Of a stretch of 64,000 nt of DNA, positions 2,690 through 50,816 are shown piece after piece (within the stretch, counting starts at the first letter, position 1; the number at the start of each line of letters is the position of its first letter). A program made the position numbers and the translations under genes. Source of the stretch: a bacterium (GTDB lineage: Bacteria; Patescibacteriota; Gracilibacteria; Peribacterales; Peribacteraceae). The notes under the pieces are model-generated. The model was not told the origin of the DNA. It ran no database searches and was given only the letters and a program-made list of their open reading frames with translations. The stretch spans positions 5,759 through 69,758 of the forward strand of contig JAKQEM010000014.1 of the NCBI GenBank assembly GCA_029558515.1, read 5' to 3'.

Positions 2690-2870
2690 TATTCCCCCAC
2701 CCCAACCCTCCCCCGCCACGCACCACCGACTCGCAGGGGGAGGGCGCAACCCTTCTGCTTTCAAATAATTTCTCCAATCAGAAAAAATCTCGTCTCCCCT
2801 CCCCCGGTAGTCGGCCGCGGCCGACGTGGCAAGCGGGTGTGGAGGGGGAGGGGTCGGGGGAGAGGGTATC
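2690..2870. repeat. GC-rich MITE-like element, long form (copy 1)
   Basis: Alignable along its length with 15270-15445. Shared blocks are CACCCCAACCCTC..CC, GGGAGGGCGCA.CCCT, ATCA.AAAAAATCTCG, GTCGGCCGCGGCCGACGTGGCAAGCGGGTGTGGAGGGGGAGGGG. It lies between the sod stop and the rpoB start. Confidence 0.8.
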
Positions 2871-3750: not shown

Positions 3751-4965
3751 ATGACTATCCGCCTGCTCTCCTCCCCCGCCGACCTCACCGCCTACAACGC
3801 CTGGGTTGCCGCCCATCCGCACGGCAGCCTGTGGCAGTCGGTGACATGGAAGAAGTTCCAGGAAGCGATCGGGCGCGAGGTGCGCATCTTTGCTGCATTC
3901 GATGAGGGAACGATACGAGCATCCGCGTTGGTCGTGATCGATAAGACGAGTTTTGGACTGAGTACGTGGGACATACCGCGCGGCCCTCTGGGGCCGGCGG
4001 AAATGCTAAATGCTAAATGCAAAATGCAAAATGATCCGGTGAAAGTGCTCTTGCAGACAATCGTTGATGATGCACGGAAGATGCGCAGTCTCAGTGTGTA
4101 CTATTCTCCTCAGCAACCATTGCTCATTTCTCATTTTGCATTTCGCATTCGCGCCTCAGCGCGACATGAGCAACCCGAAGCCACGCGCATCCTCGACCTG
4201 ACGCAAGCGGAGGAAGCGATCCTCGCGCAGATGCATCCCAAAGGAAGATACAACATCAAAGTGGCGCGGAAGCATGGCGTGCGCGTGGAACAATCGGCCG
4301 CGACCGATGCGAACTCCTTCGCATATCTCGCGCAGGAGACCGCCAAACGCGACGGGTTTCGGGCGCTTTCCGCCGCGCATTACCGGGCGTTTCTGGAGAA
4401 TGTGGAGGGGAGTTTCCTATTGATTGCGAGCGCACCCTTCCTCTCCCCCCCGGCCCCCCTCTCCACGGGAGAGGGGGGAGACAAGCCTTGTCCCCCCTTC
4501 CTCCCATGGAGGAAGGGGCCGGGGGATGGAGGAAAAGAACCTATCGCCGCCCTCATCGGCACCGTCTGGAACAAAACCGGTTATTACTATTACGGCGCAT
4601 CCGACTACGCGCACCGCAGCCTGATGGCCCCGTACCTCTTACAGTGGGAGGCGATGCGGTACTGCAAAGAGCGAGGATGTGAGAAGTATGATTTGCTGGG
4701 AATCGCCCCTCTCCCCCCTTCCCCCTCTCCACGGGAGAGGGGGGGGACCAATTTCGGTACCAGTCTCCCCTTCCTCCCGCTTGCCCTGAGCGTAGTCGAA
4801 GGGTGGAGGAAGGGGCCGGGGGATGGAGGTCATCCCTGGCAAGGAGTTTCTTCCTTCAAGGAAAAATTCGGCGGCACCGTCGTCTCCTATCCCCCGGAGC
4901 AGGAGATTTTGCTCCGGCCGATGCTGAAGAGAATGCTGGGGTGGAAGAGGAGGATGGTGGGGTAA
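3751..4965 (+). CDS. FemAB-family peptidoglycan interpeptide-bridge aminoacyltransferase (FemX/MurM-like) carrying in-frame repeat insertions
   Basis: Family-typical motifs are present: HPKGRYNIKVARKHGV, GYYYYGASDYAHRSLMAPYLLQWEAMRYCKERGCEKYDLLGI and SSFKEKFGG. The ORF is about 75 aa longer than the conserved blocks require because of two GC-rich palindromic inserts. Confidence 0.8.
   Translation: MTIRLLSSPADLTAYNAWVAAHPHGSLWQSVTWKKFQEAIGREVRIFAAFDEGTIRASALVVIDKTSFGLSTWDIPRGPLGPAEMLNAKCKMQNDPVKVLLQTIVDDARKMRSLSVYYSPQQPLLISHFAFRIRASARHEQPEATRILDLTQAEEAILAQMHPKGRYNIKVARKHGVRVEQSAATDANSFAYLAQETAKRDGFRALSAAHYRAFLENVEGSFLLIASAPFLSPPAPLSTGEGGDKPCPPFLPWRKGPGDGGKEPIAALIGTVWNKTGYYYYGASDYAHRSLMAPYLLQWEAMRYCKERGCEKYDLLGIAPLPPSPSPRERGGTNFGTSLPFLPLALSVVEGWRKGPGDGGHPWQGVSSFKEKFGGTVVSYPPEQEILLRPMLKRMLGWKRRMVG
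4001..4035. repeat. heptamer array AAATGCT AAATGCT AAATGCA AAATGCA AAATGAT inside femX-like ORF
   Basis: Five tandem 7-mers, translated as (E)MLNAKCKMQND. An inverted partner lies at 4123-4152. Confidence 0.85.
4123..4152. repeat. heptamer array CTCATTT CTCATTT TGCATTT CGCATTC inside femX-like ORF
   Basis: Reverse complement of the AAATGCA-type units at 4001-4035. Translated as LISHFAFRIR. Confidence 0.8.
4435..4532. repeat. GC-rich nested-palindrome element, short form, in frame inside femX-like ORF
   Basis: CCCCCGGCCCC-CCTCTCC-ACG-GGAGAGG-GGGGAGACAAGCCTTGTCCCCCC-TTCCTCC-CAT-GGAGGAA-GGGGCCGGGGG. Translated as PFLSPPAPLSTGEGGDKPCPPFLPWRKGPGDGG. Confidence 0.9.
4706..4829. repeat. GC-rich nested-palindrome element, short form with expanded loops, in frame inside femX-like ORF
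   Basis: Same modules as 4435-4532, with extra sequence in two loops. Translated as PLPPSPSPRERGGTNFGTSLPFLPLALSVVEGWRKGPGDGG. Confidence 0.85.
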
Positions 4966-5097
4966 CCCCCCGGCCCCTCCTGCCCTCTGGGGATTCCTCT
5001 CCCCCCCGGCCCCCCTCTCCGGTGGAGAGGGGGGAGACAAGCCTTGTCTCCCCTTCCTCCCATGGAGGAAGGGGCTGGGGGATGGAGGAAAAGGAGG
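4966..5097. repeat. GC-rich nested-palindrome element, short form, immediately after femX-like stop
   Basis: Near-identical to 4435-4532 (CCTCTCC-GGT-GGAGAGG variant). Confidence 0.9.
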
Positions 5098-5131: not shown

Positions 5132-5166
5132 AAAAAAAAAACCCCCTCTCTCGAGGGGGTTTTTTC
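5132..5166. terminator. bidirectional intrinsic terminator
   Basis: A10-CCCCCTC-TCTC-GAGGGGG-T6, between the convergent femX-like and S-layer genes. Confidence 0.8.
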
Positions 5167-9194: not shown

Positions 9195-9763
9195 AGGAGT
9201 GTAAAGGATGAGAGAAATAAAAAAGGAGTACGTTTGGGTGTGCGATGTGGGGTTCCGTCGGATCCTTTGTGTTGTGGGGGAGGAATCGATCACTCGCCTC
9301 CTTACAACTAAAGAGAGAACACCGGATGCGGCGGCGCGCTTTGGCGCGATGGTTGATACGGAAAATGCACGATCGCCTTCTGCCTACTATAAGAAGGAAG
9401 AAAGGATGTGGAAACTCGCGACGGTCCACAGTCACGGGAACGTACGAGGGGCCGGTATGTGAATGATCCGTGCACAGATCCCACTGTCTTTCCGTACTGG
9501 CAAAAGAGGAGTGGAACCCGAGGATGCTACCGATGTGCCCTTGGTCACGGCAAGACATCGAAATCTCCTCGCGCACTCCCACAAACGCCCTCGTACCGCA
9601 CTCCGTTACGAGGCAAGAAAGAGCGACGGGACATTCTCGCAAGATAAATGGTCCAAATCGACAATGCATCAGTGGATTTCGCATGGGAAAATGATCAATT
9701 TTCTTATTCTCTCACGCAGCAACTTGTGTTGATGAAATGGGGAGTTGTGTTCTAAAAGTTTTC

Positions 9764-9950
9764 CCTCCTCACCATCCTCTCCTCACCCTCCCACCTCCTC
9801 ACCCCTATCCCCTCTCCTTCCCGCCTTCACGCCTGCAGGAGAGAGGGATGTTTGTGTTTTGTGGTTGTTTGTATCTGTTCACAAATCTTCTCCTCCCCCT
9901 CTCCAGTTGGCGTCGAGAAGGAATGGAGAGGGGGTCGGGGGGTGAGGAGA
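9764..9950. repeat. GC-rich MITE-like element, long form (TTTGTGTTTTGTG-centre subfamily)
   Basis: Termini are CCTCCTCACC...CTCCTCACCCCTATCCCCTCTCC and GGAGAGGGGGTCGGGGGGTGAGGAG. Alignable with 13471-13642. Confidence 0.85.
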
Positions 9951-13005: not shown

Positions 13006-13215
13006 TCTCCTCACCCCTATCCCCTCCCTGGCCGTCCGAAGCTGCGAGCATCGGCGAGGAGCGTAGGCGGCTCCATTCCTCCCCGACGCCAACGGAAGAG
13101 GGGATGTTTTCTTGTGTGGTTGTTCCCTCCATCCCCCTGCCCCTTCCTCCACGGGAGGAAGGGGGGGCAAGGCCTGTCTCCCCCTCTCCGGTGGAGAGGG
13201 GGTCGGGGGGAGAGG
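13006..13215. repeat. composite GC-rich element: long-form left half fused to a reverse-oriented short form
   Basis: CTCCTCACCCCTATCCCCTCCC...CCCCGACGCCAACGGAAGAGGGG is followed by CCTTCCTCC-ACG-GGAGGAAGG, GGGGGCAAGGCCTGTCTCCCC, CTCTCC-GGTG-GAGAGG and GGGTCGGGGGG. Confidence 0.85.
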
Positions 13216-13267
13216 TTTTACAACGAGGAGGGGAAGGGGGTGAAGGAAATCGAGGAGAGAGAGCTTG

Positions 13268-13299
13268 AAAAAAGGACACCCGCGCACGCGCGGATGTCC
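13268..13299 (-). terminator. intrinsic terminator (minus strand)
   Basis: On the minus strand, GGACATCCGCGCGTGCGCGGGTGTCC followed by TTTTTT. Confidence 0.6.
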
Positions 13300-13470
13300 C
13301 CGTCCTGTCCTTTTGGCTGTGGCGACTGCGCAGAGTGCGCACGGGGAGCAAAAGACACCCCCACGATCGGCCCCTGGCCGTGGTGGACAGGACTCCCCAC
13401 CTCGCAAGAGCGAAGGGGTCCGCAAGTATCCCCCTTTGAGGAGGAGATGCAAGAGGGAGCTTTTCTTTTC

Positions 13471-13642
13471 CTCCTCACCCCTACCCCCTCTCCCTCCTGC
13501 CCCGACGCCAACGGGAGAGGGGAATCTTTGTTTTGTGTTTTTTGTTTTCTCTCATGACAAATAGCGCCTCCCTCTCCAGGGGGCATGCGGGCGGAATGGA
13601 GAGGGAGGTTGGGAGGGTGAGGAGGGAATAAGGAGAGTGAGG
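13471..13642. repeat. GC-rich MITE-like element, long form
   Basis: CTCCTCACCCCTACCCCCTCTCC...CGACGCCAACGGGAGAGGGG...TTTGTTTTGTGTTTTTTG...GGAATGGAGAGGGAGGTTGGGAGGGTGAGGAGG. Confidence 0.85.
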
Positions 13643-13664: not shown

Positions 13665-13701
13665 AAAAAGCCCCTCGTCTCCAGCAAACGGGGGCTTTTT
13701 T
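13665..13701. terminator. bidirectional intrinsic terminator downstream of csrA
   Basis: AAAAA-GCCCC-15nt loop-GGGGC-TTTTTT. Confidence 0.65.
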
Positions 13702-13724
13702 GGGCTGAAGCGGCGTACGCCGCC

Positions 13725-13919
13725 TCAGGCCTTATTTTCGGCGGCCGTAGCCGCCGTTTCTGGATGCTTCCGCATCCAGACTTCCTTTCGATCCACATCG
13801 ACGTCCGCCGGCGCCTCAATCGACAGCCGCACTCGGCCGCCCTGGATCCTCTCGACCGTCACTCGAATGCGATCGTCGATCACGATCGTCTCGCCGCATT
13901 TCCTTGACAACACTAACAT
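13725..13919 (-). CDS. csrA: carbon storage regulator CsrA (RNA-binding translational regulator)
   Basis: MLVLSRKCGETIVIDDRIRVTVERIQGGRVRLSIEAPADVDVDRKEV matches the CsrA family almost position by position. It is preceded by GGAGGAGGGAGCC-ATG. Confidence 0.95.
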   Translation of the reverse strand: MLVLSRKCGETIVIDDRIRVTVERIQGGRVRLSIEAPADVDVDRKEVWMRKHPETAATAAENKA

Positions 13920-14055
13920 GGCTCCCTCCTCCCCCCTACGGGGGACAACAAAAAAAATGTGAAAAACCGGAAGCTCTGCCCTAAACTGGACAGGGCAGAA
14001 TAAACAAAGTCTAATGAACTTTGCATCATTTGCAAGACTTTTCGCGCTCCCCGCT

Positions 14056-14143
14056 CATGGCTATTGGCTATTCGCCCTTCGTCATTTTGCATTTCCCATT
14101 TCCCATTTTGCATTATCCATTCTCAATTATCCATTATCCATCC
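14056..14143. repeat. long 7-nt-periodic array (GGCTATT x2; CATTTTG CATTTCC CATTTCC CATTTTG CATTATC CATTCTC AATTATC CATTATC)
   Basis: Direct 7-nt periodicity over about 88 nt in the divergent csrA/fbaB spacer. Confidence 0.8.
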
Positions 14144-14183
14144 TTCTATGCTACCCTTTCCCCCGATCCTTCCCCCCTCCCCC

Positions 14184-15251
14184 ATGCGCTCCATCGCCGA
14201 TATTCGCTCTCTCCTGGGTGATTCCGCCTTCCTGCTCGATCACACGTGCCAAACCATTCCCAAAGAGAAACTTCATCTGCCCTCGGTGCAGACGGTCCAG
14301 AGCGTCTTTGAACAGAGCGATCGTCCGGGCAAAGTCATCAAGAATCTCCTGGATCTCTACAATCACGGACGACTTGCGGGAACAGGGTACCTCTCTATCC
14401 TCCCCGTCGATCAGGGCATCGAACACTCCGCGGGCGCCAGCTTTGCCAAGAATATTGAGTACTTCGACCCGGAGAACATCGTGAAGCTCGCCGTCGAAGG
14501 CGGCTGCTCCGCGGTGGCCTCGACGCTCGGGGTGCTGGGCATGGTCAGCAAGAAGTATGCGGCGCAGATCCCCTTCATCGTGAAGATCAATCACAACGAA
14601 CTCCTCACGTACCCGAACAAATTCGATCAAGTGATGTTTGGCTCCGTGCAGCAGGCCAAGGACATGGGAGCTCTGGGAGTGGGAGCGACCATCTACTTCG
14701 GGTCGCCGGAGAGTTCGCGACAGATCGTGGAAGTGAGCCAAGCCTTTGCAGAAGCGCACCGGCTGGGACTCTTCACGGTGCTGTGGTGCTACCTGCGCAG
14801 CAGCGGCTTCAAGAAGGACGGCAAAGATTTCCATGTCTCGGCCGATCTCACGGGACAGGCCAATCACTTGGGAGTAACCATCGAAGCAGACATCATCAAG
14901 CAGAAATTGCCGGAAAACAATGGCGGCTACCTCGCGCTGGGACAGGAAAGCTCCTACGGCAAAACCGACAAGCGCGTGTACGAGCAACTCACGACCGATA
15001 ACCCCATCGACCTCACCCGCTACCAAGTGGCCAACTGCTACATGGGACGCATCGGGCTCATCAACAGCGGCGGCGCGTCGGGCGAAAACGACCTGCAGCA
15101 AGCGGTGATGACCGCGGTGGTGAACAAGCGTGCCGGCGGCAGCGGCCTCATCTGCGGCCGGAAGGCGTTCCAGAAATCTCGGGAGGAAGGCGTTGCATTG
15201 TTGAATGCGATACAGGATGTGTATCTGTGTGAAGAGGTAACTGTGGCGTAA
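14184..15251 (+). CDS. fbaB: class I fructose-bisphosphate aldolase (DhnA/FbaB type)
   Basis: Near-collinear with E. coli FbaB: [78 protein letters not shown] and [16 protein letters not shown]. Start placed at MRSIADIR. Confidence 0.95.
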
Positions 15252-15269
15252 AGATTGCCCTTCCTTTGT

Positions 15270-15445
15270 GTCCTCACCCCAACCCTCTCCCTCCCTGCCA
15301 ACGCCAACGGGAGAGGGCGCACCCTCTCTGTTTTCGATACATTTCTTCATCAAAAAAAATCTCGACACCCCCTCTCCTGGAAGTCCGCCGCAGCGGACGT
15401 GGCAAGCGGTGTGTGGAAGGAGAGGGGGACGGGGGGTGAGGAGAG
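15270..15445. repeat. GC-rich MITE-like element, long form (copy 2 of the 2690 type)
   Basis: Termini are TCCTCACCCCAACCCTCTCC and GGAGAGGGGGACGGGGGGTGAGGAGAG. Internal hairpins are GAGAGGG-CGCA-CCCTCTC and GTCCGC-CGCA-GCGGAC. It fills the convergent fbaB/yidC spacer. Confidence 0.9.
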
Positions 15446-15459
15446 TTGAAAGATAAGAC

Positions 15460-16692
15460 TCACCCTTTCACGCTCAAATGCTCTCTATTCACGATCACCT
15501 GCTGCACGATCGCAAACAGCGTGGACACGCCCCAGTAGAGTGACACCGCCGAGGGCATTTTGAGTGCGAAGAATCCGATCATGAGCGGCAACAGGTAGAG
15601 CATCATCTTCTGCTGCAGCTCCTGCGGCGTATCTACTTCCGGCGTCGTCTTCTTCTGCAATTCCTTGCGCTTCTTCTTATCCGCGATATGGAACGTGAGC
15701 TTCATCTGCAAAAATTGCAGCACGACGAGGAGCGGCGGGAAGAGCCACCAGTATGCACGCATGAGATCGAGACCGAGGAACGATGTGTCGAACGTCCAAT
15801 CGAGGTGCTGATACACGGGGTAGATGAGATGGCGGGAGAGATCCAGATGTACGCCGTCACGCACCACGTAGAAGAGCCCGATGAGCACGGGGAACTGCAC
15901 CAGGAGCGGCAGACACGATTGAAACGGATTGATCTTGTGCTCCTTCCAGAGCTTCATCGTCTCCTGCTGGAGCTTCACGGGGTCGTCCTTGTACTGCTTG
16001 CGAATCGCTTCGATCTTGGGTTGCAACAACTGCATCTTCTTCTGTCCTTCCAACGCGTGCTGCGTGGGGAGATACAAGAGTAATTTCACGATGAGCGTGA
16101 GAACGATGATGGCAAGACCCAAATTGTATCCGGGCAGCACCGACCCCAGGAAGATGAGCGCATTGAGGAGCGGCTTGGAGATGAACGCGCGGAACAGCCC
16201 GGTGAAGAAGCCCGGTTCCGTGATCACAAAATCAGCGGAGAGTACCGCACCCGTTCCCGCGTCCATACCGGCGAGTGTCAATCGGTACGTGCCCGTTTCC
16301 GCGAAGAGCGCGCTCTTCCAGGGGGCGAGTGTGATCTCGGCCTTCTTCCCCGCTTCGATCGGTTCGATCTTTTGGCAGAGCTGCGCCGTCTCTTCCGCGG
16401 TGATATCGACGAATGCGCCGGTCGCCGATACGCGTGACACATCGACGGGCGGCAGCGGACAGCGATCGGGAATCGTGAGAGGGGACACCGCATGATTCTC
16501 AATGATGAAGATCGGCACGGCGCCCTGCCGCACGGTCGCGTCCTTCATGCGGATGACGACGGGGGGCAGGTCCGCCTGCGGCGGCGTTACGGGGAAGAGT
16601 ACTTGAAAAATCAATTGATACCCCAGCACGGCGACTGCGACCATGACGAGCAGGTCCCAGATACGCTTGCCTTTCGACGGAGAATCAGCCAT
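15460..16692 (-). CDS. yidC: membrane protein insertase YidC
   Basis: Contains LGLAIIVLTLIVKLLLYLPTQHALEGQKKMQLLQPKIEAIRKQYKDDPVKLQQETMKLWKEHKINPFQSCLPLLVQFPVLIGLFYV. Its start overlaps rnpA by 8 nt. Confidence 0.93.
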   Translation of the reverse strand: MADSPSKGKRIWDLLVMVAVAVLGYQLIFQVLFPVTPPQADLPPVVIRMKDATVRQGAVPIFIIENHAVSPLTIPDRCPLPPVDVSRVSATGAFVDITAEETAQLCQKIEPIEAGKKAEITLAPWKSALFAETGTYRLTLAGMDAGTGAVLSADFVITEPGFFTGLFRAFISKPLLNALIFLGSVLPGYNLGLAIIVLTLIVKLLLYLPTQHALEGQKKMQLLQPKIEAIRKQYKDDPVKLQQETMKLWKEHKINPFQSCLPLLVQFPVLIGLFYVVRDGVHLDLSRHLIYPVYQHLDWTFDTSFLGLDLMRAYWWLFPPLLVVLQFLQMKLTFHIADKKKRKELQKKTTPEVDTPQELQQKMMLYLLPLMIGFFALKMPSAVSLYWGVSTLFAIVQQVIVNREHLSVKG

Positions 16693-25116: not shown

Positions 25117-25190
25117 CCGCCTTCGTCCGCCGCCGCGGACTACGTCGGGCAGGCAGCTGGCACACCAGCTTCACCCGATACTCTGTTCTT
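25117..25190. repeat. fragment related to the right half of the long GC-rich element
   Basis: CTTCGTCCGCCGCCGCGGACTACGTCGGGCAGGCAG compares with GAAGTCCGCCGCAGCGGACGTGGCAAGCGG at 15380-15410. It also shares CTACG.CGGGCAGGCAG with 50788-50803. Confidence 0.6.
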
Positions 25191-50718: not shown

Positions 50719-50816
50719 TCCACCCTTCGACTCCCCCTCGACAAGCTCGGAGCGCTCCCACCTCCGCTCCTTCATTACATTCGGAGCTACGGCGGGCAGG
50801 CAGGGTGAATCCTGCA
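50719..50816. repeat. GC-rich repeat related to 25117-25190 and 56144-56167
   Basis: CCTTCGACTCCCC...GGAGCGCTCC...CTACGGCGGGCAGGCAGGGTGAATCCTG. The CCTTCGACTCC start also occurs at 12488. Confidence 0.5.

What the first reader, a model, noticed from the sequence alone, without database searches (positions are those of the whole stretch)
15270..15445. About 180-bp MITE-like family with CTCCTCACCCC / GGGGTGAGGAG termini filling intergenic spacers
Copies at 2690-2870, 9764-9950, 13006-13215 (composite), 13471-13642 and 15270-15445 share C-rich/G-rich terminal inverted repeats and conserved internal hairpins. The internal hairpins are GGGAGAGGG.CGCA.CCCTCTC and GTCCGCCGCAGCGGAC-GTGGCAAGCGG. Two subfamilies are visible, one with an A8-TCTCG centre and one with a TTTGTGTTTTGTG centre. 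Five long copies plus at least four short forms in the first 16 kb, against almost none in the remaining 48 kb, is a strikingly uneven distribution. The copies sit exactly at gene ends and starts: upstream of rpoB, downstream of cysS, and between convergent fbaB and yidC. This placement suggests they double as terminators, UTR structures or recombination hot spots. No transposase gene is present in the window.
Basis: seen in the sequence. Interest (0 to 1): 0.6.

Follow-up and report, generated by a model that had tools for sequence, protein, structure and literature searches.

The report
Paired BoxC/triplex-motif palindromes in a CPR genome
The roughly 180-base repeats between genes of this uncultured Peribacteria bacterium are real; they are gene-less, paired copies of the long-known but unexplained BoxC/"triplex-motif" repeat of E. 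coli and many other bacteria, not classic transposon-derived MITEs, and they sit in spacers that differ between related species.

Summary
Five long copies (2691-2866, 9794-9950, 13006-13215, 13470-13625, 15271-15445) and short forms (4438-4534, 4706-4830, 4994-5090, 13126-13215) all lie in the first 16 kb. None lies in the other 48 kb.

Each long copy is a palindrome of two inverted units, CCTCACCCC-N2-5-CCCTCTCC-loop-GGAGAGGG, around an AT- or T/G-rich centre. This is the block order and sequence of E. coli BoxC/PIT/TMECO, but the first loop is 17-41 nt instead of 3-6.

The exact terminal motif occurs in at least 120 loci across more than a dozen phyla. Eight of those 120 loci have a DUF559 nuclease gene within 289 bp, against 0 of 56 control loci. 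All five inverted pairs spanning 470-800 bp enclose DUF559.

No target-site duplication, transposase or DUF559 gene is found in the window. Subfamily A has only its two window copies in the source metagenome. Subfamily B also occurs in three other Peribacteria assemblies.

The fbaB-yidC spacer holds different inserts in different species, so the element is not a conserved UTR.

Verdict: a new long-loop, locally clustered variant of a known repeat class. The spreading mechanism is inferred, not shown.

The parts
15271..15445 (.). Focal copy, subfamily A: a paired triplex-motif (TM) palindrome that fills the spacer between the convergent fbaB (stop at 15251) and yidC (stop at 15460)
   Evidence: Sequence; alignments. 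As single-stranded DNA the termini pair and inner hairpins form, z = -2.7.
15272..15317 (+). Left TM unit of the focal copy: outer block CCTCACCCC (15272-15280), AA, C-arm CCCTCTCCC (15283-15291), 17-nt loop, G-arm GGGAGAGGG (15309-15317)
   Evidence: long-loop TM pattern matched on the minus strand.
15309..15329 (+). Alternative inner hairpin GGGAGAGGG-CGCA-CCCTCTCT followed by GTTTTCG; the only terminator-like site in this spacer (for fbaB)
15330..15367 (.). AT-rich centre with an A8 run (15352-15359) and TCTCG. The A run is A9 in a near-identical strain from a soil metagenome
   Evidence: (X2: an A put in behind 15351).
15368..15443 (+). Right TM unit of the focal copy: C-arm CCCCCTCTCCT, 39-nt loop holding the hairpin GTCCGCCGCAGCGGAC (15384-15399) plus GTGGCAAGCGG, G-arm AGGAGAGGGGG (15418-15428), AC, outer block GGGGGGTGAGG(AG)
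2691..2866 (.). Second and only other subfamily A copy, between the sodA stop (2897) and the rpoB promoter-like site (2639-2666). Weaker inverted repeat extends to about 2678-2890. Its stems carry compensatory C/G changes relative to the focal copy
9794..9950 (.). Subfamily B copy, 8 nt from the cysS stop. Extra partial end copies lie at 9761-9793. The whole element folds as one long hairpin (z = -5.5)
13006..13125 (.). Left half of a subfamily B copy (part of the composite)
   Evidence: (D10).
13126..13215 (.). Short-form TM pair, the inverted copy of the femX-type element, fused to the half copy. Its units recur on at least 5 other contigs of the same depth in the source metagenome
   Evidence: (I1-I3, I6).
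13470..13625 (.). Subfamily B copy, just outside the csrA terminator (13677-13695). A weaker outer inverted repeat extends to about 13657
4438..4534 (.). Short-form TM pair (loops of 3-4 nt, close to the strict E. coli form) read in frame inside femX
   Evidence: (D2, D3).
4706..4830 (.). Short-form TM pair with one expanded loop (CCCTTCGACTACGCTCAGGGCAAGCGG on the minus strand), inside femX
4994..5090 (.). Short-form TM pair in the femX-SLH spacer, beside a separate bidirectional terminator (5135-5166)

Best explanation
The roughly 180-bp 'MITE-like' copies are paired, gene-less members of the BoxC / PIT / TMECO 'intrastrand triplex motif' repeat class.

Anatomy:
- Each copy consists of two inverted units. 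A unit is an outer block CCTCACCCC, a 2-5-nt linker, a C-arm CCCTCTCC, a loop, and a G-arm GGAGAGGG.
- The units point outward from an AT- or T/G-rich centre, so the whole element is a long imperfect palindrome.
- Compared with the E. coli consensus, the first loop has been expanded to 17-41 nt by a second small module, a GC hairpin followed by GGCA(A/G)GCGG.

What is shown and what is inferred:
- Shown: these copies are inserts in slots between stop codons, terminators and promoters, and those slots hold different content in related species.
- Inferred: they are selfish or near-neutral DNA and not conserved regulatory RNA elements. I also infer that the slots are dispensable and recombination-prone.
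- Inferred, not shown: they multiply rarely and mostly locally by a DNA-level copy process, meaning break- or nick-initiated gene conversion or template switching at hairpin- or triplex-prone DNA.
- The only protein found tied to the same ends is the small Vsr-like DUF559 nuclease. In other genomes, including one Peribacteria assembly, its gene sits between or beside such units. DUF559 acting in trans is therefore the leading candidate partner, with my odds about 0.25-0.3.
- Whether this genome encodes a DUF559 could not be tested.
For: Identity:
- The blocks match the published TMECO consensus CCCTCNCCC-N3-6-GGGNGAGGG-N3-GGGNGAGGG in order and sequence. A long-loop version of that pattern hits five units of the long copies. 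The strict version hits the E. coli K-12 control beside ycjD and the Peribacteria loci L009 and L005.
- The short forms in the same window have loops of 3-4 nt.
- The G-arm and the outer block are mirror repeats, as a purine-motif triplex requires (read directly from the sequence).
- The exact motif CTCCTCACCCC-N3-5-CCCCTCTCC occurs in at least 120 loci of more than 12 phyla.

Link to DUF559:
- 9 of 120 motif loci carry DUF559 by HMM, 8 of them within 289 bp of the motif. The control set gave 0 of 56 loci in 336 kb.
- All 5 inverted pairs spanning 470-800 bp enclose a Pfam-confirmed DUF559 gene.
- In Peribacteria locus L087 a DUF559 gene is followed by two tandem gene-less pairs with the same layout as the focal copy.

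Not a conserved element:
- The fbaB-yidC spacer holds different content in relatives.
- The closest relative (YidC 75%, FbaB 87% identical) lacks the element at this site. It does carry a subfamily B copy downstream of pheS, 87% identical over 76 nt to copy 9794.

Structure is maintained:
- The stems differ between copies by paired changes, for example CCCTCTCCC/GGGAGAGGG against CCCTCCCCC/GGGGGAGGG.
- Copy 9794 folds with z = -5.5.

Placement:
- Copies lie outside canonical terminators and promoters.
Against: - No DUF559 gene was found in the 64-kb window or in 35 syntenic Peribacteria loci.
- No strain-level presence/absence or empty site was seen. Near-identical strains in three other metagenomes carry the focal copy unchanged apart from one A in the A run.
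- Copy number is low and the copies are old: about 84% identity within subfamily A over a gapped alignment.
- The strict TMECO loop lengths are not met.
- 93% of motif loci have no DUF559 nearby, so the association could be a one-way preference, with the gene landing in or being flanked by the repeats, and not a partnership.
- Several distant relatives have triplex-motif hairpins in the same spacers (SLH-femX in L005 and L014; yidC-fbaB in L009 and L172). This would also fit a conserved local role.
Confidence: 0.68

Rival explanations
1. Classic MITE. The copies are internally deleted derivatives of a DNA transposon. A transposase encoded elsewhere in the genome recognises the CTCCTCACCCC ends and moves them by cut-and-paste.
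For: - The copies are small and have no ORF.
- They have terminal inverted repeats of about 25 bp.
- There are two subfamilies.
- Occupancy of the same spacer differs between species.
Against: - No target-site duplication at any of 8 window copies or 5 copies in relatives.
- The same ends occur in more than 12 phyla, which is unlike a transposon family's ends.
- No transposase was found between inverted pairs in 120 loci. The only recurring gene there is DUF559.
- Subfamily A has just two copies in the source metagenome.
Confidence: 0.06
2. Functional cis-elements. The palindromes are kept because they act as bidirectional terminators, mRNA 3'-end stabilisers or UTR structures, or as GGA-rich decoys for the neighbouring CsrA, for highly expressed genes of this block.
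For: - The inner hairpin 15310-15329 followed by GTTTTCG is the only terminator-like site between the convergent fbaB and yidC.
- Stems are kept by paired changes.
- Triplex-motif hairpins recur in the same spacers of distant relatives.
- Three copies lie next to csrA, and the G-rich halves are full of GGA.
Against: - The content of the orthologous spacer is replaced wholesale between species.
- Other copies sit beside separate canonical terminators.
- Copies are also read in frame inside femX, and inside cysS in L010.
- Published tests found no promoter or terminator activity for E. coli PIT elements (cited in PMC4666352).
- The GGA motifs lie in stems and not in loops.
- No RNA data exist: no RNA runs were found.
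Confidence: 0.1
3. No dedicated enzyme. The copies arise and spread only through host replication and repair acting on hairpin- and triplex-prone DNA (template switching, slippage, gene conversion between nearby palindromes). This gives local clusters without true mobility. DUF559 genes are merely frequent neighbours.
For: - Clustering is extreme: all copies lie within 13 kb.
- Copies are mosaic or modular, for example the composite at 13006-13215 and the left and right arms swapped between L172 and L161.
- There is no target-site duplication.
- Published work links TMECO sites to raised local variability.
- Gene order around fbaB differs by small inversions among relatives.
Against: - Near-identical end motifs across more than 12 phyla, and 87% identity between copies at non-orthologous sites of two species whose genes are 75-82% identical, are hard to get without a sequence-specific agent or horizontal spread.
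- The gene-inside-the-pair layout held in 5 of 5 long pairs.
Confidence: 0.16

Closest known systems
BoxC / PIT (potential intrastrand triplex) / TMECO repeats of E. coli and other Proteobacteria, Synechocystis and H. influenzae (Holder et al. 2015, PMC4666352, which cites the earlier BoxC and PIT papers)
   Same: - The three blocks have the same order and nearly the same sequence. E. coli has CCCTCACCC-TAA-CCCTCTCCCC and the window has CCTCACCCC-TAT-CCCCTCTCC.
- The G blocks are mirror-repeats.
- Both are intergenic, and paired inverted copies are known (5 pairs in K-12).
- Loci vary between relatives.
- No known function.
   Different: - The first loop is 17-41 nt instead of 3-6, and carries an extra hairpin module.
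- The linker is often 2 nt instead of 3.
- An AT- or T/G-rich centre of 40-60 nt separates the two units.
- The host is a candidate-phyla-radiation bacterium.
- The copies are tightly clustered, and short forms are read inside genes.
DUF559 (PF04480, YcjD-like, Vsr-fold) genes bracketed by inverted triplex-motif units. Seen here in 5 of 5 long pairs and noted many times earlier in this scan; to my knowledge not described in print as a system
   Same: Identical end motif (GGAGAGGGG-N-GGGGGTGAGGAG) and the same outward-facing orientation of the units. In Peribacteria locus L087 gene-less pairs stand in tandem right after the gene.
   Different: The window's elements carry no gene. No DUF559 was found in the window or in the syntenic loci of relatives.
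MITEs of bacteria (e.g. Correia/NEMIS of Neisseria, Nezha of cyanobacteria)
   Same: Small, non-coding, with terminal inverted repeats, intergenic, and with subfamilies.
   Different: No target-site duplication, no transposase partner, ends shared across phyla, and very low copy number.
Rickettsia palindromic elements (RPE)
   Same: Palindromic repeats that survive both in spacers and in frame inside protein genes. Here the short forms do so in femX, and in L010 in cysS.
   Different: I know of no sequence relation (not tested). RPEs are AT-rich and lineage-restricted. This is an analogy of behaviour only.
REP elements with RAYT, and NTS/SRM hairpin repeats with Ssn nucleases (Chenal et al. 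2025, PMC11893778)
   Same: This is the model for how the system might work: a small nuclease gene associated with dispersed hairpin repeats that it recognises.
   Different: The nuclease folds differ (HUH and GIY-YIG against the Vsr-like PD-(D/E)xK fold). The repeats have different sequences. No biochemical link is shown for DUF559.

Membership tests
BoxC / PIT / TMECO triplex-motif repeat | Three blocks in the order C-block, G-block, G-block, of about 9 nt each (CCCTCNCCC, GGGNGAGGG, GGGNGAGGG), with the two G blocks mirror-symmetric | tested here: met
   Both units of the focal copy and units of 2691, 9794 and 13470 match a block pattern with a free loop length. The arms are listed.
BoxC / PIT / TMECO triplex-motif repeat | First loop of 3-6 nt | tested here: not met
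   The strict pattern gives 0 hits in the window. It gives 1 hit in the E. coli control locus and 1 each in Peribacteria L009 and L005. The long copies have loops of 17-41 nt. The short forms in the same window have loops of 3-4 nt.
BoxC / PIT / TMECO triplex-motif repeat | Second loop of 3 nt (types TTA or CCG) | tested here: inconclusive
   The focal copy has AA and AC (2 nt, or 3 if one G or C is counted as loop). The B copies have TAT, TAC and TC. The short forms have CGG, which is type B. L172 and L161 have TTA, which is type A.
BoxC / PIT / TMECO triplex-motif repeat | Intergenic, sometimes in inverted pairs, with loci that vary between relatives | tested here: met
   All 5 long copies are intergenic and are inverted pairs. 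The orthologous spacer differs among species. Exception: the short forms lie inside femX.
BoxC / PIT / TMECO triplex-motif repeat | Forms an intrastrand triplex in vitro | not testable with these tools
   Needs CD or NMR on oligonucleotides. Only the mirror symmetry of the blocks can be read from the sequence.
MITE | Terminal inverted repeats and a small size without an ORF | tested here: met
   Imperfect terminal inverted repeats of about 25 bp; elements of 150-210 bp.
MITE | Target-site duplication flanking each copy | tested here: not met
   The flanks of 8 window copies and 5 copies in relatives show no consistent direct repeat.
MITE | Autonomous partner with the same ends that encodes a transposase | tested here: inconclusive
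   None was found in the window. In 120 loci with the same ends, the only recurring enclosed gene is DUF559.
MITE | Many dispersed, similar copies in the genome | tested here: not met
   Subfamily A has 2 copies in the whole source metagenome at 80% likeness or more. Subfamily B has 3 copies in the window plus 1 on another contig. All window copies lie within 13 kb.
DUF559 cassette bracketed by triplex-motif units | A DUF559 gene between or directly beside the inverted units | tested here: not met
   The centres are 40-60 nt with no ORF. The DUF559 HMM finds nothing in the six frames of the window at E up to 1.
REP / RAYT | Palindromes of 20-40 nt with a conserved GTAG head, and a RAYT (IS200/IS605-like) gene flanked by them | not tested
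   The element ends carry no GTAG head (read from the sequence). No RAYT search of the genome was possible.

The most novel reading that the evidence does not exclude
Triplex-motif pairs such as these would be the non-autonomous offspring of a previously unrecognised, pan-bacterial class of mobile cassette. Its only protein would be the small Vsr-like DUF559 nuclease. The nuclease would recognise the folded hairpin-plus-G-run ends and trigger copy-and-paste by gene conversion. That would explain the absence of target-site duplications, the short-range clustering, the in-frame survival inside genes, and the small inversions around the occupied spacers. It would be a REP/RAYT-like or NTS/Ssn-like partnership with a third nuclease fold, active even in the reduced genomes of the candidate phyla radiation.
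Probability: 0.25. Interest if true: 0.75.

Novelty: new variant of a known kind. Interest (0 to 1): 0.4.

Why it matters
BoxC/PIT/TMECO repeats have been known since the 1990s, but their origin, means of spread and function are unknown.

- This locus shows that the same motif exists in a candidate-phyla-radiation bacterium. There it forms expanded, paired, locally clustered elements of 150-210 bp that a reader would take for MITEs.
- The spacers holding these elements change between species and coincide with small gene inversions.
- An unbiased sample of loci with the same ends gives an independent, controlled count of the DUF559 association: 8 of 120 against 0 of 56, and 5 of 5 long pairs. 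This makes a concrete biochemical test of a candidate partner enzyme worthwhile.
- For annotation, such elements should not be called MITEs or terminators by default.

Tried and rejected
- As a substitute I laid the elements on the contigs of the source metagenome. This detects only copies at 80% likeness or more over about 40 nt, so diverged copies are missed.
- Laying the Peribacteria DUF559 cassette (L087) on the source metagenome found nothing. This is uninformative at the DNA level.
- A subfamily A pattern in the species-representative genomes gave 1 hit, in an alphaproteobacterium; about 0.5 chance hits were expected by my estimate, and I did not inspect the locus.
- The subfamily B centre pattern in the JGI metagenomes gave 40 hits. 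Only one (L208) is a real relative and the rest are chance.
- Looking up the exact CysS protein found no record.
- No RNA runs hold the locus, so transcript ends could not be examined.
- Rfam gave only far sub-threshold matches to eukaryotic miRNA-precursor models, meaning generic long hairpins.
- I suspected that the loop module was the widespread 'FDKLRA'-type repeat. That motif was absent from the 120 motif loci, so I dropped the idea.
- No strain-level empty site was found. X2-X4 hold only a few short pieces of the region, and those that cover the focal copy match it.
- Small ORFs in the gene-poor stretch at 11.5-13 kb have no Pfam match.

Full report
**Tools and source**

No whole-genome search of the window's own assembly was therefore possible, and every statement about the rest of the genome rests on indirect evidence.

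The window comes from an uncultured Candidatus Peribacteria (candidate phyla radiation) bacterium. All close protein relatives of its YidC are Peribacteria assemblies. The stretch is fully held, at about 13-14x depth, in one activated-sludge metagenome (X1). Near-identical pieces occur in three further sludge, soil and wastewater runs.

**1. The observation**

The five long copies are present where stated and align as one family.

- Subfamily A is 2691-2866 and 15271-15445. The two copies share the centre A6-8-TCTCG, the inner hairpin GGGAGAGGG-CGCA-CCCTCTC and the loop GTCCGCCGCAGCGGAC-GTGGCAAGCGG.
- Subfamily B is 9794-9950, 13470-13625 and the left half of 13006-13215. These share a GGGATGTTT...TGTGGTTGTT-type centre.
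- The 'composite' at 13006-13215 is a left half of subfamily B joined to a 90-bp short form. That short form is the inverted copy of the elements at 4438-4534 and 4994-5090 (pairs I1-I3).
- The end motif CCTCACCCC-N2-5-CCCTC occurs four times, against 0.01 expected from shuffles.
- A search for perfect polypyrimidine/polypurine hairpins of at least 8-9 bp finds 17, all between 2706 and 15428, and none in the remaining 48 kb. Simple word counts agree.
- The flanking genes are rpoB, sodA, a FemAB-family gene, an SLH-domain S-layer-type gene, cysS, csrA, a DeoC/LacD-type aldolase (fbaB) and yidC.
- The copies stand 8-18 nt from stop codons.

**2. Anatomy**

The focal copy reads:

- outer block CCTCACCCC (15272-15280), then AA;
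- C-arm CCCTCTCCC, a 17-nt loop, and G-arm GGGAGAGGG (to 15317);
- CGCA-CCCTCTCT (an alternative hairpin);
- a 38-nt AT-rich centre;
- C-arm CCCCCTCTCCT (15368-15378), a 39-nt loop that itself holds a GC hairpin, and G-arm AGGAGAGGGGG;
- AC, then outer block GGGGGGTGAGG(AG).

The element is thus two inverted units facing outward. The termini can also pair with each other. As single-stranded DNA the focal copy folds with paired termini and inner hairpins (z = -2.7). Copy 9794 folds into one long hairpin (z = -5.5).

Between the two A copies both stems differ by paired changes: CCCTCTCCC/GGGAGAGGG against CCCTCCCCC/GGGGGAGGG, and CCCCCTCTCC/GGAGAGGGGG against CCCCTCCCCC/GGGGGAGGGG. Other copies use CCCCTTCCTCC/GGAGGAAGGGG. 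Complementarity is therefore maintained while the sequence drifts.

**3. What it is**

I tested this independently.

- The published consensus is CCCTCNCCC-N3-6-GGGNGAGGG-N3-GGGNGAGGG (PMC4666352).
- The strict pattern hits the BoxC copy beside ycjD in E. coli K-12. It also hits solo units in two Peribacteria relatives: L009, directly after the yidC stop, and L005. It hits nothing in the window.
- With the first loop freed to 7-45 nt, the pattern hits five units of the long copies.
- The short forms in the window have loops of 3-4 nt and the type-B linker CGG.
- The G-arm and outer block are mirror repeats (GGAGAGGGG | GGGGTGAGG), as a purine-motif triplex requires. This is read directly from the sequence.

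The long copies are therefore a long-loop, paired variant of this class and not strict TMECO members.

These include Chloroflexota, Planctomycetota, Myxococcota, Bacteroidota, Cyanobacteria, Gemmatimonadota, Armatimonadota, Firmicutes, Fibrobacteria and several candidate phyla, including two other Peribacteria. An end shared this widely is not a lineage-specific transposon end.

**4. Relatives and orthologous sites**

The block gatA-yidC-fbaB-csrA-cysS-SLH-femX-sodA is syntenic in more than 20 Peribacteria assemblies. The yidC-fbaB spacer differs among them:

- an A-type pair in the window;
- a B-type pair filling the spacer from stop codon to stop codon in L172 (FbaB 79% identical);
- a solo strict unit in L009;
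- a 23S-rRNA-intervening-sequence-protein gene (PF05635) between inverted 7-8-mer arrays in L001, with the same layout in L005, L008 and L012;
- bare 7-8-mer palindromes in L019 and L024.

L001 is the closest relative (YidC 75%, FbaB 87% identical) and has no triplex-motif unit there. The same assembly carries a B-type element downstream of pheS (L041). It is 87% identical over 76 nt to copy 9794, which is more than the 75-82% identity of the shared genes.

A third assembly has three B-type copies (L161, L164, L172). One JGI contig (L208) has another. L023, a 44% GC relative, has a 145-bp pair of the same layout next to csrA.

Gene order around fbaB also differs among relatives by small inversions: fbaB alone (L021, L024, L029), the csrA-fbaB pair (L013, L022) and yidC (L003). 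This fits palindromic spacers being recombination-prone, but it is a correlation only.

**5. Copy number in the window's own genome**

- Laid on the source metagenome at 80% likeness or more, the focal copy finds only itself and the 41-nt loop region of copy 2691.
- The B-type and composite region finds copy 9794, plus short-form units on contigs of 19,040, 14,444, 15,055 and 2,760 bp at the same 12-14x depth. One more lies on an 8,079-bp contig.
- The L041 element finds one further B-type end on a 7,634-bp contig, whose adjoining letters look like a B-type centre.
- The family therefore exists outside the window, but at a handful of loci, compared with nine elements inside 13 kb.
- Near-identical strains in other samples carry the focal copy unchanged apart from A8 to A9. 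No empty site was seen.

**6. Partner gene**

No flanks show a target-site duplication. No transposase or DUF559 gene is present in the window, either by tblastn with YcjD or by an HMM built from ten DUF559 sequences.

In the unbiased set of 120 loci with the same end motif:

- Nine loci carry DUF559 by HMM, and eight of these lie within 289 bp of the motif. The 56 control loci (336 kb), fetched by unrelated chance patterns, gave none.
- Among inverted unit pairs the spans fall into three classes: about 86-132 bp (20 pairs), 160-200 bp (3 pairs, the size of the window's elements) and 470-800 bp (5 pairs). All five pairs in the last class enclose a gene that Pfam confirms as DUF559 (E = 1e-28 to 1e-40).
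- In Peribacteria locus L087 a DUF559 gene reads into a unit at its 3' end. It is followed by two tandem gene-less pairs built as unit, about 39 nt of AT-rich centre, and unit ending GGGAGAGGGG-CT-GGGGGTGAGG(AG). This is the same plan as the focal copy.
- In E. coli K-12 the 3' end of ycjD also reads into such a unit, and a strict BoxC lies 160 bp further on.

The association is thus reproduced here with a control. It says nothing yet about the direction of cause, and 93% of motif loci have no such gene nearby.

**7. Function**

Only one inner hairpin of the focal copy (15310-15329 followed by GTTTTCG) passes a simple terminator scan. The copies at 4994-5090 and 13470-13625 lie beside separate canonical terminators (5135-5166, 13677-13695). 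Copy 2691 lies upstream of a promoter-like site for rpoB.

Rfam has no family for the elements. The only hits are far sub-threshold matches to miRNA-precursor models, meaning generic hairpins. No RNA data exist. Published work found no promoter or terminator activity for E. coli PIT elements, but did find raised local variability.

I therefore read the copies as selfish or near-neutral DNA that occupies slots between transcription signals. They may occasionally be co-opted, with the fbaB terminator as the possible case.

**8. Mechanism, with odds**

- Shown: identity of the blocks with BoxC/TMECO; the palindromic paired layout; maintenance of the stems; different inserts at the orthologous site between species; clustering; absence of target-site duplications; association of the same ends with DUF559 elsewhere.
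- Inferred: rare, mostly short-range copying by break- or nick-initiated gene conversion or template switching.
- My odds for the source of that copying: a DUF559 nuclease acting in trans, about 0.25-0.3; host processes alone, about 0.16; a classic transposase-driven MITE, about 0.06; a primarily regulatory element, about 0.1.

**9. Novelty**

The repeat class and its paired form are known (PMC4666352). The following are new:

- the long-loop, 150-210-bp composite form with two subfamilies;
- its presence and local expansion in a candidate-phyla-radiation genome;
- the recurrent use of the same spacers across the class Peribacteria.

The DUF559 link has been noted repeatedly in this scan and is re-tested here with a control. 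In my paper searches DUF559 appeared only as enriched among predicted inversion targets (PMC9881135) and in a PD-(D/E)XK survey, not as a partner of these repeats.

I score interest as moderate. The finding is solid but mostly places a 'MITE-like' family into a known, still unexplained class.

Noticed in passing
L001 7016-7529; also L005 4712-5309, L008 1176-1798, L012 11069-11634; L019 11060-11152 and L024 11069-11205: In relatives the same yidC-fbaB spacer holds a 23S-rRNA-intervening-sequence-protein gene (PF05635, E = 8e-26 in L001) bracketed by inverted arrays of 7-8-base tandem repeats. Two other relatives have only the gene-less inverted arrays. This is a second, unrelated pairing of 'gene inside a palindrome' with a 'gene-less palindrome' at one site.
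   Followed up: partly
window 13700-15460, compared with L013, L022, L021, L024, L029 and L003: Gene order differs among Peribacteria by inversion of fbaB alone, of the csrA-fbaB pair, or of yidC. Each inverted segment is bounded by the spacers that carry the palindromic repeats.
   Followed up: partly
window 25117-25160 (beside tRNA-Asp), 50770-50805, and 4767-4815 on the minus strand; L010 12790-12860 (inside cysS); L041 2650-2700: The insert that lengthens the first loop of the units is a GC hairpin such as TCCGCCGC-N-GCGGA followed by ACG..GGCA(A/G)GC(GG). It is a small repeat in its own right. It also occurs alone next to tRNA-Asp and at 50.8 kb, and inside a unit within cysS of a distant relative.
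   Followed up: partly
window 1-64000: Cumulative GC skew rises to about 4-10 kb and then falls steadily to the window's end. The repeat cluster therefore straddles a skew switch. Only about 6 kb lies on the rising side, so an origin or terminus cannot be called.
   Followed up: no
L010 18232-19437 and 12790-12860: A Rifle-groundwater Peribacteria assembly (YidC 50% identical) also carries several triplex-motif hairpins inside its femX gene and one inside cysS. The same genes tolerate these inserts in distant lineages.
   Followed up: no
window 15352-15359: The A8 run in the centre of the focal copy is A9 in a near-identical strain from a soil metagenome. This is the only difference across the element.
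   Followed up: yes
L172 3315-3463 compared with L161 388-537: Two subfamily B copies of one assembly have their left and right arms swapped relative to the centre (CCCCTCCCC/CCCCTTCTCC against CCCTTCTCC/CCCCCTCCCC). This is as expected if the centre flips by recombination between the inverted units.
   Followed up: no
window 13216-13469: The 250 nt between two elements contain GC hairpins and a stretch (13358-13426) with extra depth in the source metagenome, meaning it is repeated elsewhere. There is no Rfam or Pfam match.
   Followed up: no
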